DNA from: an uncultured Oscillospiraceae bacterium
Lineage (GTDB): Bacteria; Bacillota; Clostridia; Oscillospirales; Oscillospiraceae
Assembly (NCBI GenBank): GCA_947584295.1
Contig: CANPWM010000002.1
Span: 7,937 to 71,936, forward strand
Length of the DNA: 64,000 nt
Direction: 5' to 3'
Within the stretch, counting starts at the first letter, position 1. Each line of letters starts with the position of its first letter. The position numbers and the translations under genes were made by a program. The notes beneath the pieces were generated by a model. That model was not told the origin of the DNA and ran no database searches. It saw only the letters and a list, made by a program, of their open reading frames with translations. Of this stretch, positions 4,298 to 64,000 are shown piece by piece.

Positions 4298-4343
4298 ATT
4301 TCAACCGGAAGGGGAACCCTGATGGTTCCCCTTCCAACCGCCG
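4298..4343 (+). repeat. R1 palindromic repeat, copy 2 (truncated tail)
   Basis: GGAAGGGGAACC-ctgat-GGTTCCCCTTCC, lacking the CCCTTCCYTCCG tail. Confidence 0.8.
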
Positions 4344-4347
4344 CACG

Positions 4348-4414
4348 GCGGCGGGTGATTGAATCGGAAGGGGAACCCTGACGGTTCCCCTTCCAAACCC
4401 TTCCTTCCGAACAT
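4348..4414 (+). repeat. R1 palindromic repeat, copy 3 (full length)
   Basis: GGCGGCGGGTGATTGAATCGGAAGGGGAACCCTGACGGTTCCCCTTCCAAACCCTTCCTTCCGAACA. Nearly identical to the reverse complement of 24931-24994. Confidence 0.85.
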
Positions 4415-4460
4415 ACGGAAGCCTGATTTATTACGCAAATGTTCTGTACGGGCCGGACGC

Positions 4461-10794: not shown

Positions 10795-11525
10795 TAAAGA
10801 CCGTCGTCCTTGCCGCCGGTAAGGGGACAAGGCTGGCCCAGGAGGGCATCGACCAGCCCAAGGCCATGCGTCTGGCCCTGGGAAAGCCCCTGTTGGGGTG
10901 GGTGTTGGACGCCCTGCCCACGGGGAAAAGCGACACCGTGCTGGTGGTGGGCTACAAGAAGGAGTACATTCTGGAGGCCTTCCCGGAGTACCCCCACGCC
11001 GAGCAGACCCAGCAGCTTGGCACCGGCCACGCCGTGATGTGCGCCGTTCCGGCCCTGGGAGATTACCGGGGGGACGTGCTTATCTGCTGCGGGGATATGC
11101 CCCTGGTGCGGCCCGAGACTTACAGGGCCTTGGTGGAGGAACACCAAAAAAGCGGCGCCGTCTGCACGGTGCTGTCCGGCGTCTCCGAGGAGCCGCTGCC
11201 CTTCGGGCGGGTGATCCGGGACGAAAACGGCGATTTTGACCGCATCGTGGAGGACCGGGACTGCACCCCGGCGGAAAAGGCCTGCCGGGAGCTGAACTCC
11301 GGGATCCTGGCGGTGGACTTTCGGAAGATGGTCTCCGCCCTTTCGGAGCTGCGCACCGACAACGCCCAGGGGGAGTATTACCTCACCGACCTGCCCCGGA
11401 TCCTCAAGGAGCGCGGGGAGAAGGTGGCCGTCTGCGCCCGGAACATGGGCGAGGAGCTGATCGGCGTGAATACCCCCGCCCAGCTTGCCCAGGTGGAGGG
11501 CCTTTTAAGGGCGCGCTCGCGCTGA
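10791..11525 (+). CDS. sugar-phosphate nucleotidyltransferase (GlmU N-terminal-like, no acetyltransferase domain)
   Basis: VVLAAGKGTRL P-loop-like signature, QLGTGHAV, CGDMPL, EYYLTD. Start overlaps the upstream stop. Confidence 0.75.
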   Translation: MIKTVVLAAGKGTRLAQEGIDQPKAMRLALGKPLLGWVLDALPTGKSDTVLVVGYKKEYILEAFPEYPHAEQTQQLGTGHAVMCAVPALGDYRGDVLICCGDMPLVRPETYRALVEEHQKSGAVCTVLSGVSEEPLPFGRVIRDENGDFDRIVEDRDCTPAEKACRELNSGILAVDFRKMVSALSELRTDNAQGEYYLTDLPRILKERGEKVAVCARNMGEELIGVNTPAQLAQVEGLLRARSR

Positions 11526-24779: not shown

Positions 24780-25345
24780 ACGGAAAAAACAATAGATTTG
24801 CGGAAATTCTCCGCCGCCTCCGGCGGCGGAGAATACAACCTAATGGAAAGGTTTTCCCGAAATGCGGCGGGCCGGCCGGGTGTCCGGCCCGTACAGAACA
24901 TTATTCGGATAAAAAACAGTTCCCGTATGAGCGGAGGGAAGGGTTTGGAAGGGGAACCGTCAGGGTTCCCCTTCTGATTCAATCACCCGCCGCCATACGA
25001 AACATCTCCCCCCATATCTTTTCGCTTCCCCCAACGTAAAATTTATCCGTACGGGCCGGACACCCGGCCGGCCCGCCTATCGAATTACAAAAAAACCATC
25101 GTATAACGCCGTACGGGCCGCCGCCCACGGCGGCCCATGGCACCATCGAATTTCGCAACAACCCATTATTATGCTTCCGTAGGGGTCGCCCTCCCGGGCG
25201 ACCCGTCCACCGATGATTGACCACCCGGAGGTTCACCGGGACGGGCCGCCCGGGAGGGTGGCCCCTACGGCGGTTAAATTAAATTTCCCATAATTCGTTT
25301 GTCGGGGCGGCCGTCCCCGGCCGCCCCGCCCGCCGAACCTCCGGG
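24780..25345. repeat. mosaic of GC-rich palindromic units (block X; R1+R3, no R2)
   Basis: R3 hairpins at about 24866-24894 (reverse), 25049-25077, 25111-25136, 25179-25208, 25241-25268 (reverse) and 25301-25330, plus R1 at 24931-24994. Collinear with parts of blocks Y and Z. Confidence 0.8.
24931..24994 (-). repeat. R1 palindromic repeat, copy 4
   Basis: The reverse complement reads GGCGGCGGGTGATTGAATCAGAAGGGGAACCCTGACGGTTCCCCTTCCAAACCCTTCCCTCCGC. Confidence 0.85.
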
Positions 25346-27318: not shown

Positions 27319-27352
27319 AAAGCGGATATCCGAAAGGAATATCCGCTTTGCC
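27319..27352 (+). terminator. hairpin terminator between asnB and trkH
   Basis: GCGGATATCC-gaaa-GGAATATCCGC followed by TTTGCCGTTTGTTT. A second GC hairpin without a T-run lies at 27276-27305. Confidence 0.6.
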
Positions 27353-27393
27353 GTTTGTTTACAAAAAATTAATTATTTTTATAATATTTTTAC

Positions 27394-27422
27394 TTGACAT
27401 ATGGGGGAGCGTATGGTATAAT
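27394..27422 (+). promoter_or_regulatory. near-consensus sigma-A promoter (copy A), antisense to trkH
   Basis: ACAAAAAATTAATTATTTTTATAATATTTTTA-CTTGACA-17 bp-TGGTATAAT. The predicted TSS is about 26 nt outside the trkH stop (27455), pointing into trkH. 39/41 identity of UP+-35 with copy B. Confidence 0.6.
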
Positions 27423-27454
27423 CCAAAGCGTAGGGGGAAGTGCGCCTATCGGGG

Positions 27455-60014: not shown

Positions 60015-62227
60015 GCATACCAGTTCATGAGGCAGCCCTCAAGAATAATTTCACGTTCTTTTTGCGTAAGCTCCGGGAGCTTCAGGGTGATGTCCGTCAC
60101 CCGGCCGCCGGAGAGGGCCTTGGCGGGGATCTCCCGCGCGCCGGACTCCACGGCCTTTTTCACGCCGGGGACGTAGATAAGGTCGCCGGGTTCAAAGGGG
60201 AAATCGGCGTCCCCGTCGATGTTGAAGGGCAGCATGCCCCAGTTGATGCAGTTGGAGCGGTAACGCTTGGTGGCGTACTCATAGCAGATGTTGGCCCCGC
60301 CGCCCAGCACCCGCTGGCAGGAGGCCGCCTGCTCCCGGGCGGAGCCGTCGCCGGGGCGGTTGGCGAAGATGGCGGAGGCCAGGGCGGTGTTCTCCACGTC
60401 CGTGACGCCCAGCTTCTCGAAGGCGGCCAGCAGCGCCCCGTCCGGGGCCTTGCTCCCCCGCTCCCGAATGGCGTTGGCCCGGCCCACATAGGCCGGATCC
60501 CGGCGGGAGAGGGCGAAGGTGGCCAGCTTCAGGGGGTTGGAGCGGTAGCTGGAGGTGTCGCCGGAGGGGATCAGCTCGTCGGTGGTGGTCACCGGGTCCC
60601 GGAGGACGCTGGCCAGCTCCAGGACGATATTCTCCTTCAGGGCCGGAATGGCGGGCCATTCGGTGATGTTGGGGCCAAGGCGCAGCTCCTCCTCCGGGTG
60701 GGGGTCGCCAAAGCCGTTATAGACGCGTTTATCGTAGGCGCTCCTGTCGTACCGGCGCTCTACCGGGGCGGGGGGCGTGTAGTCGATCTCGTCCGCGCCG
60801 GTGAGTACGCCGCCGTTTCGCGCCGTGGCGGCGATGGAGCGGGCGTCCATCAGGGCCACGCAGGAGAGCTGTCCCTCCGCCGGTTTCGACCCCTCCCGGT
60901 TGGGGAAGTTGCGGGTGCAGTGGCGGATAGAGAGGCCGCTGTTCACCGGCACGTCCCCCGCGCCGAAGCAGGGGCCGCAGAAGCAGGGCTTGAACACCGC
61001 CCCCATGGCGGTGAGGCGCTGGGTCACGCCGTTGTTCATCAGCTCCATGGCCACGGGCAGGCTGGGCGGGTAGACCGTCAGGCCGAAATATCCCGCGCCG
61101 ATGCCGCCGGAGGCCAGAATGGCCGCGGCCTCGGCGATGTTGTCGTACATACCGCCGGAGCATCCGGCGATAACGCCCTGATCCACGTAGAGCCGGCCGT
61201 TTTTGACCTTGCTCACCAGATCCAGCTTCACCTTGCCCTTGAACTTCCCCTGGGCGGACTTCTCCGTTTCCCGGAGGATATCGGTGAGGTTGGCCTTCAG
61301 CTCCCGAATGGTGTACGCCTCGCTGGGGTGGAAGGGCAGGGCGATCATAGGCTCCACCGTGGAGAGGTCGATCTCCACGCAGGCGTCGTAATAGGCCCCC
61401 TCCCCCGGCTCCAGCTTCTTATAGTCCCCGGGCCGCCCGTGGACGCGGTAATATTCCTCCACCCTGCTGTCCGTCTGCCAGATGGAGCTTAAACAGGCCG
61501 TCTCGGTGGTCATCACGTCGATGCCGATGCGGAAATCCATGGGCAGGCTCTCGAGGCCGGGGCCGGCGAACTCCAGGACGGAGTTGAGGACGAAATTGTT
61601 CTTGTACGTGGCGCCGCACAGGGCGATGGCCACGTCCTGGGGGCCTACGCCCCTTCGGGGCGCGCCGGTGAGATACACCAGCACCGTCCGGGGATAGGCC
61701 ACGTCGTAGGTGGCCTCCAAAAGCTGCTTGACGATCTCCGGGCCGCCCTCGCCCACGCCCATGGTACCCAGCGCGCCGTAGCGGGTGTGGCTGTCGGAGC
61801 CTAAGATCATTTTGCCGCACCCGGCCAGCTCCTCCCGGGCGTACTGGTGGATAACGGCGAAGGAGGGGGGTACGAAAATACCGCCGTATTTCCGGGCCGC
61901 CGAAAGGCCGAAGGCGTGGTCGTCGGCGTTGATGGTGCCGCCTACGGCGCACAGGCTGTTGTGGCAGTTGGTCATGACGTAGGGCACCGGGAACCGCTGA
62001 AGGCCGCTGCCCTTGGCCGTCTGAAGGATACCCACATAGGTGATGTCGTGGGAGATGAGACTGTCGAAGGCGATACGCAGGTTTTTCCCGTCCGTCCCTT
62101 TGTCATGGGCGGACAAAATGGCGTGGGCGATAGTCTTTTTCCGCCCCGCCTCCGGGTCCTGCCCGGGCGCTTCAAAGACGGGCCTGCCGCCCAGATAATA
62201 GGTTCCCTTGTCGTGTAATGTGACCAT
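59993..62227 (-). CDS. acn: aconitate hydratase (monomeric Fe-S hydro-lyase)
   Basis: 744 aa. GSDSHT, CGPCFG and NREGS-type motifs. The C-terminal 7 residues (ASSRKSR) are read from repeat sequence. Confidence 0.9.
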   Translation of the reverse strand: MVTLHDKGTYYLGGRPVFEAPGQDPEAGRKKTIAHAILSAHDKGTDGKNLRIAFDSLISHDITYVGILQTAKGSGLQRFPVPYVMTNCHNSLCAVGGTINADDHAFGLSAARKYGGIFVPPSFAVIHQYAREELAGCGKMILGSDSHTRYGALGTMGVGEGGPEIVKQLLEATYDVAYPRTVLVYLTGAPRRGVGPQDVAIALCGATYKNNFVLNSVLEFAGPGLESLPMDFRIGIDVMTTETACLSSIWQTDSRVEEYYRVHGRPGDYKKLEPGEGAYYDACVEIDLSTVEPMIALPFHPSEAYTIRELKANLTDILRETEKSAQGKFKGKVKLDLVSKVKNGRLYVDQGVIAGCSGGMYDNIAEAAAILASGGIGAGYFGLTVYPPSLPVAMELMNNGVTQRLTAMGAVFKPCFCGPCFGAGDVPVNSGLSIRHCTRNFPNREGSKPAEGQLSCVALMDARSIAATARNGGVLTGADEIDYTPPAPVERRYDRSAYDKRVYNGFGDPHPEEELRLGPNITEWPAIPALKENIVLELASVLRDPVTTTDELIPSGDTSSYRSNPLKLATFALSRRDPAYVGRANAIRERGSKAPDGALLAAFEKLGVTDVENTALASAIFANRPGDGSAREQAASCQRVLGGGANICYEYATKRYRSNCINWGMLPFNIDGDADFPFEPGDLIYVPGVKKAVESGAREIPAKALSGGRVTDITLKLPELTQKEREIILEGCLMNWYASSRKSR

Positions 62228-62369
62228 GTCATCACCTCATCAATGTATATACGGAAAGTATACCAGCTTTTCGCCGGTGTTTCAATACCTCCGCTTTGTT
62301 TGTTTGCATAAAAGTTCCCGCCGATTCTCTCCCCGGTTTTGGTCAAAGATGAATTTCTGTATATAAAAC

Positions 62370-62398
62370 TTGCAATTTTTCCTATGGGGGATTATAAT
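62370..62398 (+). promoter_or_regulatory. sigma-A promoter of citrate synthase
   Basis: TTGCAA, 17 bp, TATAAT (62393-62398). Confidence 0.6.
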
Positions 62399-62443
62399 AA
62401 ATCCTGTATCACGGGGATATTCCCCGGCTGTAACCCTCGGAAA

Positions 62444-63823
62444 ATGAAAGAAGGAGTCATTTTGGATTCAAAATTGACAGCTTCGCGGGAATACGCGGAT
62501 CTGATAACCGGCAACCTTATGAACCACTACCGTATCCCCGGCTCCGCCTATGATGAGAACGTCAAGCGGGGGCTTCGGAACGCCGACGGCTCCGGCGTCA
62601 TCGCGGGCGTCTCCAAGATCGGCTCCGTTCGCGGCTACTACATCGAGGACGGCCAGCGCGTCCCCCACGAGGGCAAGCTTTTCTACCGGGGCTATGACGT
62701 GGAGGACATCGTCAACGCCCACCGCAGGGCGGACACCTTCGGCTATGAGGAGGTGGCCTATCTGCTGCTGTGCGGCTCCCTGCCCACCCAGGCCCAGCAG
62801 GAGCAGTTCGTGGAGATCCTCTCCGCCGCCAAGGCCCTGCCCGACGGCTTTTTTGAGAACGAGCTGATGAAGCGGCCCAGCCCCAACATCATGAACGCCA
62901 TCTCCCGGGCGGTGGTGAGCCTGTACGCCTACGACGACAACCCCGACGACACCTCCGTGGTGAACGTCCTCCGGCAGTCCATCGAGCTGATCGCCCGTAT
63001 GCCCACCATCGTGGCCCACACCTACGCCATGAAGCGGCATTATTACGACGGGGCGTCCCTCTATATCCACAACCCCAAATCCGACCTGACCCTGGCGGAG
63101 AACTTCCTGCGGCTGGCCCGACGGGACAAGAGCTACACCGACAAGGAGGCAAAGCTCTTAGACTGCCTGATGATGCTCCACGCCGAACACTCCGGCGGCA
63201 ACAACTCCACCTTCGTCTGCCGCGCCGTCACCTCCACCGGGGCCGACACCTACGGCGCTATTGCCGCCGCCATCAACTCCCTGAAGGGCCCCCTCCACGG
63301 CGGCGCCAACGAGGCTGTCATGCACATGGTGGCGGATATCCTGGCCCACGTCAAAGATCCCCGGGACGACGACGAGGTGGGCGCGTATCTGGATAAGATC
63401 CTGGACGGCAAGGCCAATGACCGCTCCGGCAAGCTCTACGGCCTGGGCCACGCCGTCTATACCGTCTCCGACCCCCGCGCCGTCACCATCAAGGAGCTGA
63501 TCGCCGAGATGGCCGAGACAAAGGGGTACAGCGACGAGTTCCTGATCGCCGAGCGGGTGGAGCGCCTGGGCGTCTCCAAGCTCATGGCCCGCAAGGGCAA
63601 GTCCATGCCTATCCCCGCCAATGTGGATCTCTACTCCGGCATCGTCTATAAGATGCTGGGGATCCCGGAGGATCTGTATACCCCCCTCTTTGCCGTCTCC
63701 CGGATCTCCGGCTGGTGCGCCCACCGGCTGGAGGAGCTGATCACCTCCGGCCGGATCATGCGCCCCGCCTACCGCTCCGCCGCCACCCGGCAGAAATATA
63801 TCCCCATCGGCGAACGCAGGTAA
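62444..63823 (+). CDS. gltA: citrate synthase
   Basis: LLCGSLPT, MLHAEHSGGNNSTF, GPLHGGANE, YGLGHAVY motifs. The in-frame TTG at 62462 has the better SD (GAAGGAG), so the start is uncertain by 6 codons. Confidence 0.9.
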   Translation: MKEGVILDSKLTASREYADLITGNLMNHYRIPGSAYDENVKRGLRNADGSGVIAGVSKIGSVRGYYIEDGQRVPHEGKLFYRGYDVEDIVNAHRRADTFGYEEVAYLLLCGSLPTQAQQEQFVEILSAAKALPDGFFENELMKRPSPNIMNAISRAVVSLYAYDDNPDDTSVVNVLRQSIELIARMPTIVAHTYAMKRHYYDGASLYIHNPKSDLTLAENFLRLARRDKSYTDKEAKLLDCLMMLHAEHSGGNNSTFVCRAVTSTGADTYGAIAAAINSLKGPLHGGANEAVMHMVADILAHVKDPRDDDEVGAYLDKILDGKANDRSGKLYGLGHAVYTVSDPRAVTIKELIAEMAETKGYSDEFLIAERVERLGVSKLMARKGKSMPIPANVDLYSGIVYKMLGIPEDLYTPLFAVSRISGWCAHRLEELITSGRIMRPAYRSAATRQKYIPIGERR

Positions 63824-63873
63824 CAGTTGACCAGAGAGGCCCGAAAAACGGGCTTCCCTCCTACGCAGTTTGG

Positions 63874-63902
63874 ATTATACCACAAGGGTGCTTATTTGTC
63901 AA
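63874..63902 (-). promoter_or_regulatory. near-consensus sigma-A promoter (copy B), antisense to citrate synthase
   Basis: Minus strand reads CACAAAAAATTAATTATTTTTATTATATTTTTA-CTTGACA-17 bp-TGGTATAAT-CCAAACTGCGTAGGAGGGAAG. The predicted TSS is about 44 nt beyond the gltA stop, pointing into gltA. Confidence 0.6.
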
Positions 63903-63948
63903 GTAAAAATATAATAAAAATAATTAATTTTTTGTGAACAACGGGCGA

Positions 63949-63982
63949 GAGCCGCCGGGTGATCCGGCGGCTCCGCTTTTTT
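63949..63982 (+). terminator. intrinsic terminator (probable end of the gltA transcript)
   Basis: GAGCCGCCGG-gtgat-CCGGCGGCTC followed by CGCTTTTTT. It lies beyond the antisense promoter, so the sense 3' UTR would span that promoter. Confidence 0.75.
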
Positions 63983-64000
63983 CGCCACATTTTACAAAAT

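What the first reader, a model, noticed from the sequence alone, without database searches (positions are those of the whole stretch)
63830..63945. Promoter copy B: near-identical twin of copy A, antisense to citrate synthase and embedded in its 3' UTR
On the minus strand, CACAAAAAATTAATTATTTTTATTATATTTTTACTTGACA-17 bp-TGGTATAATCCAAACTGCGTAGGAGGGAAG lies between the gltA stop (63823) and the terminator that probably ends the gltA transcript (63949-63982). This is the same geometry as copy A at trkH: stop codon, then a reverse strong promoter, then the terminator. The first 20 transcribed nt are conserved between A and B and are followed in each case by a short hairpin (GAAGCCCG-ttttt-CGGGCCTC here). 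This suggests a family of cis-antisense RNAs or a mobile promoter cassette.
Basis: partly seen in the sequence, partly recalled or inferred. Interest (0 to 1): 0.6.

Follow-up and report, generated by a model that had tools for sequence, protein, structure and literature searches.

The report
Reused strong promoter facing gltA's end
Just behind the citrate synthase gene sits one copy of a roughly 85-base, near-perfect promoter cassette that a few rabbit-gut bacteria reuse at many unrelated genes, nearly always pointing backwards into the gene's end; this copy is a recent, species-specific arrival, and no RNA data yet show what it does.

Summary
On the minus strand at 63946-63860 lies an AT-rich upstream block, TTGACA, a 17-bp spacer, TGG-TATAAT and CCAAAC. 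It sits between the gltA stop (63823) and a plus-strand terminator (63949-63982). It matches copy A (27350-27436) at 36 of 37 bases of the upstream block.

It belongs to a discrete family. I found 13 copies at 11 independent loci in five rabbit-gut Oscillospiraceae species. All score 63-75 bits against a profile of the family, while ordinary strong promoters score 26 or less. The 45-nt upstream/-35 block and the -10 are almost invariant, but the 14-nt spacer core is essentially random. Nine of the 11 loci point into the 3' end of a gene, including all five loci between same-direction genes. Two drive a gene normally.

At gltA the cassette is derived. Eight related lineages lack it, including one with the same acn-gltA-glpK order and 96.5% identical GltA. 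There are no terminal inverted repeats, target duplications or Rfam matches, and no hits in phage or plasmid collections.

Best reading: a reused sigma-A promoter cassette firing antisense into gltA and lowering its expression. Transcription is untested because no stranded RNA data exist.

The parts
62462..63823 (+). gltA (citrate synthase, 453 aa, TTG start). This is the gene the cassette faces.
   Evidence: The exact 453-aa product is on record with Pfam Citrate_synt. The SD AAGGAG lies before the TTG. The longer ORF starting at 62339 is over-extended.
63836..63856 (.). Local hairpin between the gltA stop and the cassette (GAGGCCCG-AAAAA-CGGGCTTC). No U-tract follows on either strand. Its 3' arm overlaps the segment shared by copies A and B.
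63853..63868 (-). Extension shared by copies A, B and L005 (CTGCGTAGGAGGGAAG). It forms the first ~16 transcribed bases and contains an SD-like AGGAGG with no start codon behind it.
   Evidence: Alignments. The L005 copy has GCGTATCGGGGAAGG.
63866..63869 (-). Predicted transcription start, 5-8 nt after the -10 and about 44 nt from the gltA stop.
   Evidence: Inferred from promoter geometry. Not measured.
63860..63946 (-). Cassette copy B as delimited by the family profile (75.5 bits, E 3.8e-22).
   Evidence: Metagenome contigs leave the sequence at 63939-63941 and at 63868-63893.
63874..63882 (-). Extended -10: TGG-TATAAT.
63883..63896 (-). Variable 14-nt core of the spacer (AATAAGCACCCTTG). 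It is essentially unrelated between family members and polymorphic within the species.
63897..63902 (-). -35 hexamer TTGACA.
63903..63941 (-). Nearly invariant AT-rich upstream block (TTGTTCACAAAAAATTAATTATTTTTATTATATTTTTAC). It also holds a second, upstream promoter-like pair, TTCACA-16-TATTAT (63938-63911). On the plus strand it holds a weaker one, TTGTCA-17-AATAAT (63896-63924).
63949..63982 (+). Intrinsic terminator that should end the gltA mRNA, placing the cassette inside the gltA 3' UTR.
   Evidence: A similar stem follows the gltA stop directly in relative L024.
27350..27436 (+). Copy A of the same cassette, facing the trkH 3' end.
   Evidence: 72.3 bits. TrkH Pfam match.

Best explanation
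Copy B is a genuine member of a discrete, roughly 85-105-nt sigma-A (sigma-70 type) promoter cassette that a small clade of rabbit-gut Oscillospiraceae reuses at unrelated loci. The cassette consists of a nearly invariant 45-nt AT-rich upstream block ending in TTGACA, a free 14-nt spacer core, and TGR-TATAMT-CCAAA.

In the window's species the cassette was acquired in the gltA-glpK spacer, between the gltA stop codon and its terminator.

Mechanism (inferred): it binds RNA polymerase strongly and starts an RNA about 44 nt beyond the gltA stop that runs back into gltA. No minus-strand terminator is predicted inside gltA. Head-on polymerase collisions and/or pairing of the antisense RNA with gltA mRNA would then lower citrate synthase expression.

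Shown:
- the sequence, its family membership and its conservation pattern;
- the orientation bias of the family;
- that the gltA copy is derived.

Inferred:
- that the promoter fires in vivo;
- that its effect is repression of gltA.
For: 1. Promoter anatomy. The hexamers match consensus 12 of 12, with a TG extension and an AT-rich upstream tract, in a genome of 62.7% GC.

2. Discrete family. Thirteen copies score 63-75 bits. The next best sequence in the window, the thiT promoter, scores 25.7. All 11 collection hits come from four rabbit-gut Oscillospiraceae MAGs.

3. The conservation pattern is that of a promoter. The upstream block, -35 and -10 are almost invariant and the spacer is random.
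- In the orthologous pair L001/L005, the flanking gene is 70.5% identical at third codon positions.
- About 50 nt of the cassette are identical.
- Only 3 of 14 spacer bases match.
- The two differences between strains at gltA fall on the spacer and on the one dimorphic site.

4. It is used as a real promoter. Copies L007 and L008 sit the right distance upstream of an SD and start codon of U32 and M23 peptidase genes.

5. Orientation. Nine of 11 independent loci face a gene's 3' end.
- At seven of them the stop codon lies 20-55 nt from the predicted start.
- All five loci between same-direction genes are antisense.

6. Derived at gltA.
- The cassette is absent behind gltA in L026 (GltA 96.5% identical, same acn-gltA-glpK order, 97-nt spacer).
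- It is absent in L024 (96.9% identical) and in six lineages at 85-89%.
- It is present in same-species contigs L012 and L013.

7. No minus-strand terminator is predicted in 62000-64000.

8. A synthetic antisense promoter at a gene's 3' end represses in proportion to its strength, through collisions and antisense RNA (PMC4731013).
Against: - No transcript evidence. The organism has no stranded RNA-seq. Eight RNA runs held nothing on this stretch. The one that held the cassette (X21) is an unstranded assembly and carries the L003/L004-type copy.
- The targets (TrkH, GltA, an HtrA-like protease, rubrerythrin, acyl-ACP thioesterase, a cell-wall hydrolase, ArgR and two unknowns) share no theme.
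- Close relatives manage without the cassette at gltA, so any effect is dispensable.
- The orientation bias rests on 11 loci (binomial p about 0.03). It could reflect which insertions are tolerated rather than function.
- The near-perfect invariance of 45 AT-rich bases is more than a generic UP element would need and is unexplained.
Confidence: 0.55

Rival explanations
1. Tolerated passenger. The cassette is a reused or selfishly spreading strong promoter with no host role at gltA. It persists behind stop codons, pointing backwards, because those insertions do the least harm: a strong sense promoter in front of a gene, or any insertion inside a gene, would be removed by selection.
For: - Lineage-specific gain at gltA, while relatives with 96-97% identical GltA lack it.
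- Unrelated target genes.
- High copy number in metagenomes.
- Synteny breaks occur next to copies, for example L003 versus L004 about 60 nt beyond the cassette.
- The concept of putative mobile promoters exists in the literature (PMC3575422).
Against: - The promoter elements stay invariant in an orthologous pair whose neutral sites have diverged about 30% and whose spacer is randomised. This indicates purifying selection on promoter function, not decay.
- No transposon-like ends or target duplications.
- All five same-direction contexts are antisense, and the start-to-stop distance is tightly 20-55 nt.
Confidence: 0.25
2. Gene-end insulator or two-way promoter. The cassette acts on DNA as a polymerase-loaded roadblock that limits read-through from gltA into glpK. 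Its weaker reverse-strand promoter (TTGTCA-17-AATAAT, conserved because it lies in the invariant block) may also serve the downstream gene.
For: - In L011 (argR-cassette-recN) and L001/L005, the next gene's SD and ATG follow the cassette's upstream edge within about 15 nt, with no terminator or other promoter in between.
- A 10 of 12 promoter match exists on the gene strand.
- Five of 11 loci lie between same-direction genes.
Against: - At gltA a good terminator and glpK's own conserved promoter lie between the cassette and glpK, so neither role is needed here.
- Four loci lie between convergent genes, where no downstream gene exists.
Confidence: 0.1
3. Sense-strand RNA element. The reverse complement of the cassette works within the gltA mRNA 3' UTR. 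It could be an AU-rich nuclease entry site, or the CUUCCCUCCU stretch could pair with the gene's own ribosome binding site, as in Staphylococcus aureus icaR.
For: - The cassette lies between stop codon and terminator, so it should be transcribed as part of gltA mRNA.
- An RNA-derived contig spans another copy together with its gene.
- There is a precedent for 3' UTR anti-SD pairing (PMC3868564, listed).
Against: - An RNA element would not keep TTGACA and TGnTATAAT at exactly 17 bp while letting the spacer drift.
- Two copies are upstream of genes.
- Predicted pairing between the 5' and 3' UTRs of gltA and of trkH is no better than with shuffled sequence (fractions 0.32 and 0.95).
- The AU-rich part is unstructured.
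- No Rfam match.
Confidence: 0.05
4. Invertible promoter caught in the OFF state. A recombinase flips the cassette so that it drives glpK when ON and faces gltA when OFF.
For: A backward-facing strong promoter between same-direction genes is what an OFF-state inverton looks like. Gut bacteria are rich in invertons (from my own knowledge; not tested against a paper here).
Against: - No inverted repeats flank any copy beyond chance.
- The window, L012 and L013 come from separate assemblies and share one orientation.
- No strand-changing joints appear at the cassette in three DNA metagenomes.
- A terminator separates the cassette from glpK.
- Four loci are between convergent genes.
Confidence: 0.03

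Closest known systems
Putative mobile promoters / promoter reuse (Matus-Garcia, Nijveen & van Passel 2012; PMC3575422)
   Same: Highly similar promoter-bearing sequences of at least 50 nt next to non-homologous genes, within and between genomes, with no recognisable mobile element and no known means of movement.
   Different: Those were defined as lying -150 to -50 upstream of start codons. Here 9 of 11 loci lie behind stop codons and face backwards. The -35 to -10 spacer is free while the rest is invariant, and the family is confined to one narrow clade.
Antisense promoters at gene 3' ends; the synthetic terminator plus antisense-promoter part (Brophy & Voigt 2016; PMC4731013)
   Same: A constitutive promoter behind a gene and facing it. 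Repression through collisions and antisense RNA is the mechanism proposed here.
   Different: - Order: in the synthetic part the sequence is gene, terminator, promoter. Here it is gene, promoter, terminator, so sense polymerases cross the promoter.
- Conservation: that paper describes natural antisense promoters as poorly conserved and spontaneously arising. This one is a conserved, repeated cassette.
Promoter-carrying miniature repeats (Correia elements, ERIC and other MITEs)
   Same: Short intergenic repeats, present in many copies, that bring strong promoters next to genes.
   Different: No terminal inverted repeats, no target-site duplication, and a fuzzy downstream edge.
Excludons / long antisense RNAs of Listeria
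   Same: A transcript starting behind one gene, antisense to it, that could continue into the divergent neighbour. Here that neighbour is acn-icd on the minus strand, and no terminator is predicted in between.
   Different: Nothing shows that the RNA reaches acn. Other family members lack such a divergent neighbour.
rRNA-type strong promoters with UP elements and tandem P1/P2
   Same: AT-rich upstream tract, consensus hexamers, and two promoter-like pairs in tandem.
   Different: No stable-RNA gene follows. The upstream tract is conserved base for base, far beyond the UP-element consensus.

Membership tests
Sigma-A/sigma-70 promoter with UP element and extended -10 | -35 TTGACA, 17-bp spacer, -10 TATAAT | tested here: met
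   12 of 12 match at 63902-63874.
Sigma-A/sigma-70 promoter with UP element and extended -10 | TGn before the -10 and an AT-rich tract upstream of the -35 | tested here: met
   TGG-TATAAT is present. The 40 nt upstream are 88% A+T in a 62.7% GC window.
Sigma-A/sigma-70 promoter with UP element and extended -10 | Transcription starts 5-9 nt after the -10 in vivo | not testable with these tools
   No stranded RNA data for this organism.
The repeated cassette of copy A (this clade's promoter family) | Full-length match to the family profile, well above ordinary promoters | tested here: met
   75.5 bits for copy B, against 25.7 bits or less for non-members.
The repeated cassette of copy A (this clade's promoter family) | Occurs at unrelated loci in several genomes | tested here: met
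   11 loci in 4 MAGs plus 2 in the window. Core depth is 730-840 against 10-150 for the flanks in three metagenomes.
MITE / Correia-like element | Terminal inverted repeats | tested here: not met
   The longest inverted repeats between the flanks of the same locus (5-10 nt) equal those between flanks of different loci (mean 7.1).
MITE / Correia-like element | Target-site duplication | tested here: not met
   Direct repeats between the flanks of the same locus (6-10 nt) equal the cross-locus controls (mean 7.0).
Putative mobile promoter (operational definition of Matus-Garcia et al.) | At least 80% identity over at least 50 nt between regions flanked by non-homologous genes | tested here: met
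   Copies A and B are 83% identical over 78 nt. The flanking genes are unrelated.
Putative mobile promoter (operational definition of Matus-Garcia et al.) | Located -150 to -50 upstream of a start codon | tested here: not met
   Copy B and 8 other loci have no gene downstream on their strand. Only L007 and L008 qualify.
Invertible promoter (inverton) | Flanking inverted repeats | tested here: not met
Invertible promoter (inverton) | Both orientations present in a population | tested here: inconclusive
   Only one orientation appears in the window, L012 and L013, and there are no strand-changing joints. However, only assembled contigs were available, not raw DNA reads.
cis-antisense RNA / excludon | A detectable transcript overlapping the target gene on the opposite strand | not testable with these tools
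   No stranded RNA.
Any curated RNA family (Rfam 15) | Match at the gathering score | tested here: not met
   None at the gathering score. The best hit by E-value was 18.9 bits against a cut-off of 58.7.

The most novel reading that the evidence does not exclude
The clade keeps a standard, host-maintained 'gene-end' part. It is a sequence-invariant promoter block, perhaps recognised by a dedicated factor in addition to RNA polymerase, installed directly behind stop codons to send polymerases back into chosen genes or to partition operons. Together with the non-homologous look-alikes at 11593-11565 and 53101-53073, this would be a systematic layer of 3'-end antisense control. It would be built from a copyable module rather than from promoters that arise by chance.
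Probability: 0.2. Interest if true: 0.75.

Novelty: new variant of a known kind. Interest (0 to 1): 0.5.

Why it matters
Natural antisense promoters are usually seen as noisy, short-lived by-products of weakly specified promoter motifs. Here the same strong promoter is copied to many gene ends. Selection holds it nearly base for base in orthologous copies while its spacer drifts freely, and it is gained at new genes within a genus.

If these copies fire, they are a natural counterpart of the engineered antisense tuning part. They would also be a clear case of regulatory rewiring by promoter reuse, one that lowers expression rather than raising it. The gltA site is a natural experiment: sister species have the same gene order with and without the cassette.

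Tried and rejected
The copy number in the window's own genome is therefore unknown.
- RNA evidence:
  - Two searches for RNA runs.
  - Four metatranscriptome assemblies and four raw-read host RNA runs held nothing on this stretch.
  - X21 held only another copy, unstranded.
- Wider distribution:
  - The exact 31-mer is absent from the JGI metagenome contigs and from IMG/VR.
  - A looser pattern gave one contig, L025, with similar architecture but a different upstream tract (20.8 bits).
  - blastn against phages found nothing. Against plasmids it found only AT-rich chance hits in Stammera.
- 5'-3' UTR pairing of the icaR type: no better than shuffles.
- Terminal inverted repeats, target duplications and inverton repeats: none above the cross-locus controls.
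- Relation between each copy's spacer and its own flanks:
  - A weak excess of 6-nt direct matches (3 of 12 own-locus versus 5 of 132 cross-locus).
  - One striking 10-nt inverted match in L010. There is no general rule.
- A clean empty site with exact junctions:
  - L026 has the same gene order but its whole terminator segment differs, so the borders cannot be read to the base.
  - The rubrerythrin locus in L016 is not alignable downstream.
- Small ORFs behind the SD-like AGGAGG: no start codon at a usable distance.

Full report
**1. The observation**

- The consensus scan gives TTGACA, 17 bp, TATAAT with a TG extension at 63902-63874, a 12 of 12 match.
- The only terminator-like site in 62000-64000 is the plus-strand stem 63949-63973 followed by CGCTTTTTT.
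- gltA is a real citrate synthase gene. The 453-aa product from the TTG at 62462 to the TAA at 63821-63823 is on record with Pfam Citrate_synt.
- Copy A lies at 27350-27436 on the plus strand. The inverted-repeat search pairs the two copies over 78 nt at 83% identity.
- The 37-nt upstream tract, allowing up to 3 mismatches, occurs exactly twice in the window and never in 100 shuffles.
- Beyond the -10, copies A and B share about 16 more bases with small indels. The hairpins that follow are different sequences.

**2. The surroundings**

Two same-species contigs extend past the window end (L012 and L013). The next gene is a plus-strand glycerol kinase gene, glpK, starting 243 nt after the gltA stop (named by homologues).

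The order on the plus strand is:
- gltA stop;
- hairpin 63836-63856;
- the cassette, reversed;
- the terminator;
- glpK's own promoter (GTGACA-17-TACAAT), which is conserved in relatives;
- glpK.

Copy B therefore lies between two same-direction genes and opposes both. The sense 3' UTR folds into the two hairpins with an unstructured AU-rich stretch between them. No minus-strand terminator is predicted across gltA.

**3. A discrete family**

The core pattern ATTATTTTTATWATATTTTTACTTGACA hit 11 places in one-genome-per-species contigs. All were in four uncultured rabbit-gut ('Lapin') Oscillospiraceae MAGs, seven of them in a single MAG.

- A profile built from the 13 copies scores every member at 63-75 bits.
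- The next best sequences in the window are ordinary strong promoters: thiT at 25.7 bits, and 53104-53064 and 11623-11559 at 13-14 bits.
- The alignment shows TGTTYAC-AAAAAATTAATTATTTTTATWATATTTTTACTTGACA almost without change, then 14 essentially unrelated bases, then TGR-TATAMT-CCAAA.
- In three rabbit-gut DNA metagenomes the bin holding the upstream block has a summed depth of 730-840, against 10-150 beside it.
- Contigs leave the window sequence sharply at 63939-63941, and at 63868-63893 on the other side. The upstream edge is sharp, the spacer varies, and the downstream edge is fuzzy.
- The exact core is absent from the JGI metagenome contigs, IMG/VR, phage records and plasmids.

**4. Context of the copies**

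Coding regions were picked by their codon-position GC pattern and named with Pfam. Counting the orthologous pairs L001/L005 and L003/L004 once each gives 11 independent loci.

- Nine loci face the 3' end of a gene. The targets are TrkH, GltA, an HtrA-like protease, rubrerythrin, an acyl-ACP thioesterase, a SleB-like hydrolase, ArgR and two unknown proteins.
- At seven of these nine, the stop codon lies 20-55 nt from the predicted start.
- Five of the nine sit between same-direction genes (gltA-glpK, argR-recN, the L001/L005 pair, the L009 pair and the L006 pair). All five are antisense.
- Two copies (L007 and L008) sit correctly in front of an SD and start codon of U32 and M23 peptidase genes. 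The cassette is therefore used as an ordinary promoter as well.

**5. Evidence for selection**

L001 and L005 are orthologous copies in two species. They share the flanking genes and a derived A-to-G change in the A-tract. Between them:

| Region | Identity |
|---|---|
| Upstream gene, third codon positions | 70.5% |
| Short non-cassette intergenic stretches | about 60-78% |
| About 50 consecutive cassette bases | 100% |
| Spacer core | 3 of 14 bases |

Within the window's species, L012 differs from the window in the cassette only at a spacer base and at the dimorphic W site. This pattern fits purifying selection on promoter elements. It does not fit recent copying or homogenisation between copies, either of which would also preserve the spacer.

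**6. Presence and absence at gltA**

I fetched the gltA 3' ends of relatives.

- **L026** (Lapin-030 bin26, GltA 96.5% identical) has the same acn-gltA-glpK order. Its spacer is 97 nt: stop codon, terminator, glpK promoter. There is no cassette, although this MAG carries a cassette elsewhere (L004).
- **L024** (96.9% identical) has a terminator 22 nt after the stop, with a stem like the window's terminator.
- **Six lineages at 85-89% identity** have plain terminators and different downstream genes.

The profile finds no cassette in any of these loci. The gltA copy is therefore a gain in the window's species. Exact junctions cannot be read because the terminator segment also differs.

**7. What it is not**

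- There are no flanking inverted or direct repeats above the cross-locus controls. It is therefore not a MITE and not a classical inverton.
- There is no Rfam match.
- 5'-3' UTR pairing is not significant.
- No usable ORF follows the SD-like AGGAGG.

**8. Transcription**

Transcription is untested. X21, an unstranded RNA assembly, holds gltA pieces. It covers the cassette only through a 1,941-nt contig that belongs to the L003/L004-type copy. That contig spans the target gene and the cassette and ends 21 nt beyond it. This is compatible with the sense mRNA reading through a cassette, but it says nothing about antisense RNA. Eight other RNA runs held nothing.

**9. Interpretation**

The best-supported reading is a reused strong sigma-A promoter cassette, newly placed between the gltA stop and its terminator, that fires back into gltA. 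The likely effect is down-tuning by polymerase collisions and antisense RNA, as measured for synthetic 3'-end promoters (PMC4731013). The order here, promoter before terminator, differs from that design.

The rivals are:
- a tolerated passenger whose orientation reflects survivorship;
- an insulator or two-way promoter;
- a sense-strand RNA element;
- an OFF-state inverton.

The closest published concept is the 'putative mobile promoter' (PMC3575422). This cassette departs from that concept by lying mostly behind genes.

I could therefore not take the census in the window's own assembly.

I re-derived the family, the orientation bias and the conservation pattern independently. New here are the gltA presence/absence series and the tests for repeats, UTR pairing and inversion.

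Noticed in passing
window 11593-11565 (-) and 53101-53073 (-): Two more perfect TTGACA-17-TGG-TATAAT promoters with AAAAAATAATTA-type upstream tracts also face the 3' end of the preceding plus-strand gene. The stops are at 11525 and 53055, about 33 and 11 nt from the predicted starts. They are not family members by profile (12.8 and 14.4 bits). In this window, four of the six 12-of-12 promoters have no gene to drive.
   Followed up: partly
L010:3284-3370 (-): The promoter spacer (AATCGCCTCT) and the bases just after the -10 (AGAGGCGATT) form a 10-bp inverted repeat followed by a T-rich tail. This makes a terminator-like hairpin with the -10 in its loop, placed where the upstream same-direction PALP gene ends.
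   Followed up: partly
L001:3651-3737 vs L005:1833-1919: In this orthologous pair the 14-nt spacer core matches at only 3 of 14 positions. That is well below third-codon-position identity (70.5%) and the nearby intergenic identity. The spacer seems to change faster than neutral sites, or it has been replaced.
   Followed up: partly
window 63911-63916 and 63933-63938; all family copies: The only two recurrent variable sites in the invariant block (Y in TTYACA, W in TATWAT) fall in the hexamers of the upstream tandem promoter-like pair. The W site even differs between strains at the gltA locus (window versus L012).
   Followed up: no
L011:4727-4857; L001 and L005: argR-cassette-recN, and the unknown gene pair in L001/L005. 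The next gene's SD and ATG start about 10-15 nt beyond the cassette's upstream edge, with no terminator. The cassette fills an intra-operon spacer, and its weaker reverse-strand promoter could serve the downstream gene.
   Followed up: no
L003 vs L004; window vs L026 and L027-L029: Synteny breaks lie next to cassette copies. L003 and L004 become unrelated about 60 nt beyond the cassette's upstream edge. The window shares acn-gltA-glpK with L026, but shares the genes downstream of glpK with L027-L029.
   Followed up: partly
L025:1288-1366 (JGI contig Ga0307377_10105821): A lone promoter with the same architecture (TTTTTTACTTGACA-N14-TGGTATACTCCAAAATAGCGAGGGGCAAG) but a different upstream tract (20.8 bits). 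It may be a distant relative of the family.
   Followed up: no
window 62339-62461: The long ORF listed for gltA is over-extended. The recorded product starts at the TTG at 62462, behind AAGGAG, and a TTGCAA-17-TATAAT promoter lies at 62370-62398.
   Followed up: yes
L007:4150-4245; L027:2700-2990; window 4300-4420 and 24930-25330: GC-rich palindromic repeat families (GGAAGGGGAACCCTGACGGTTCCCCTTCC and GTAGGGGCCGCCG...CGGCGGCCC types) recur in these genomes. One abuts the cassette in L007, and others fill the region upstream of glpK in L027-L029.
   Followed up: no
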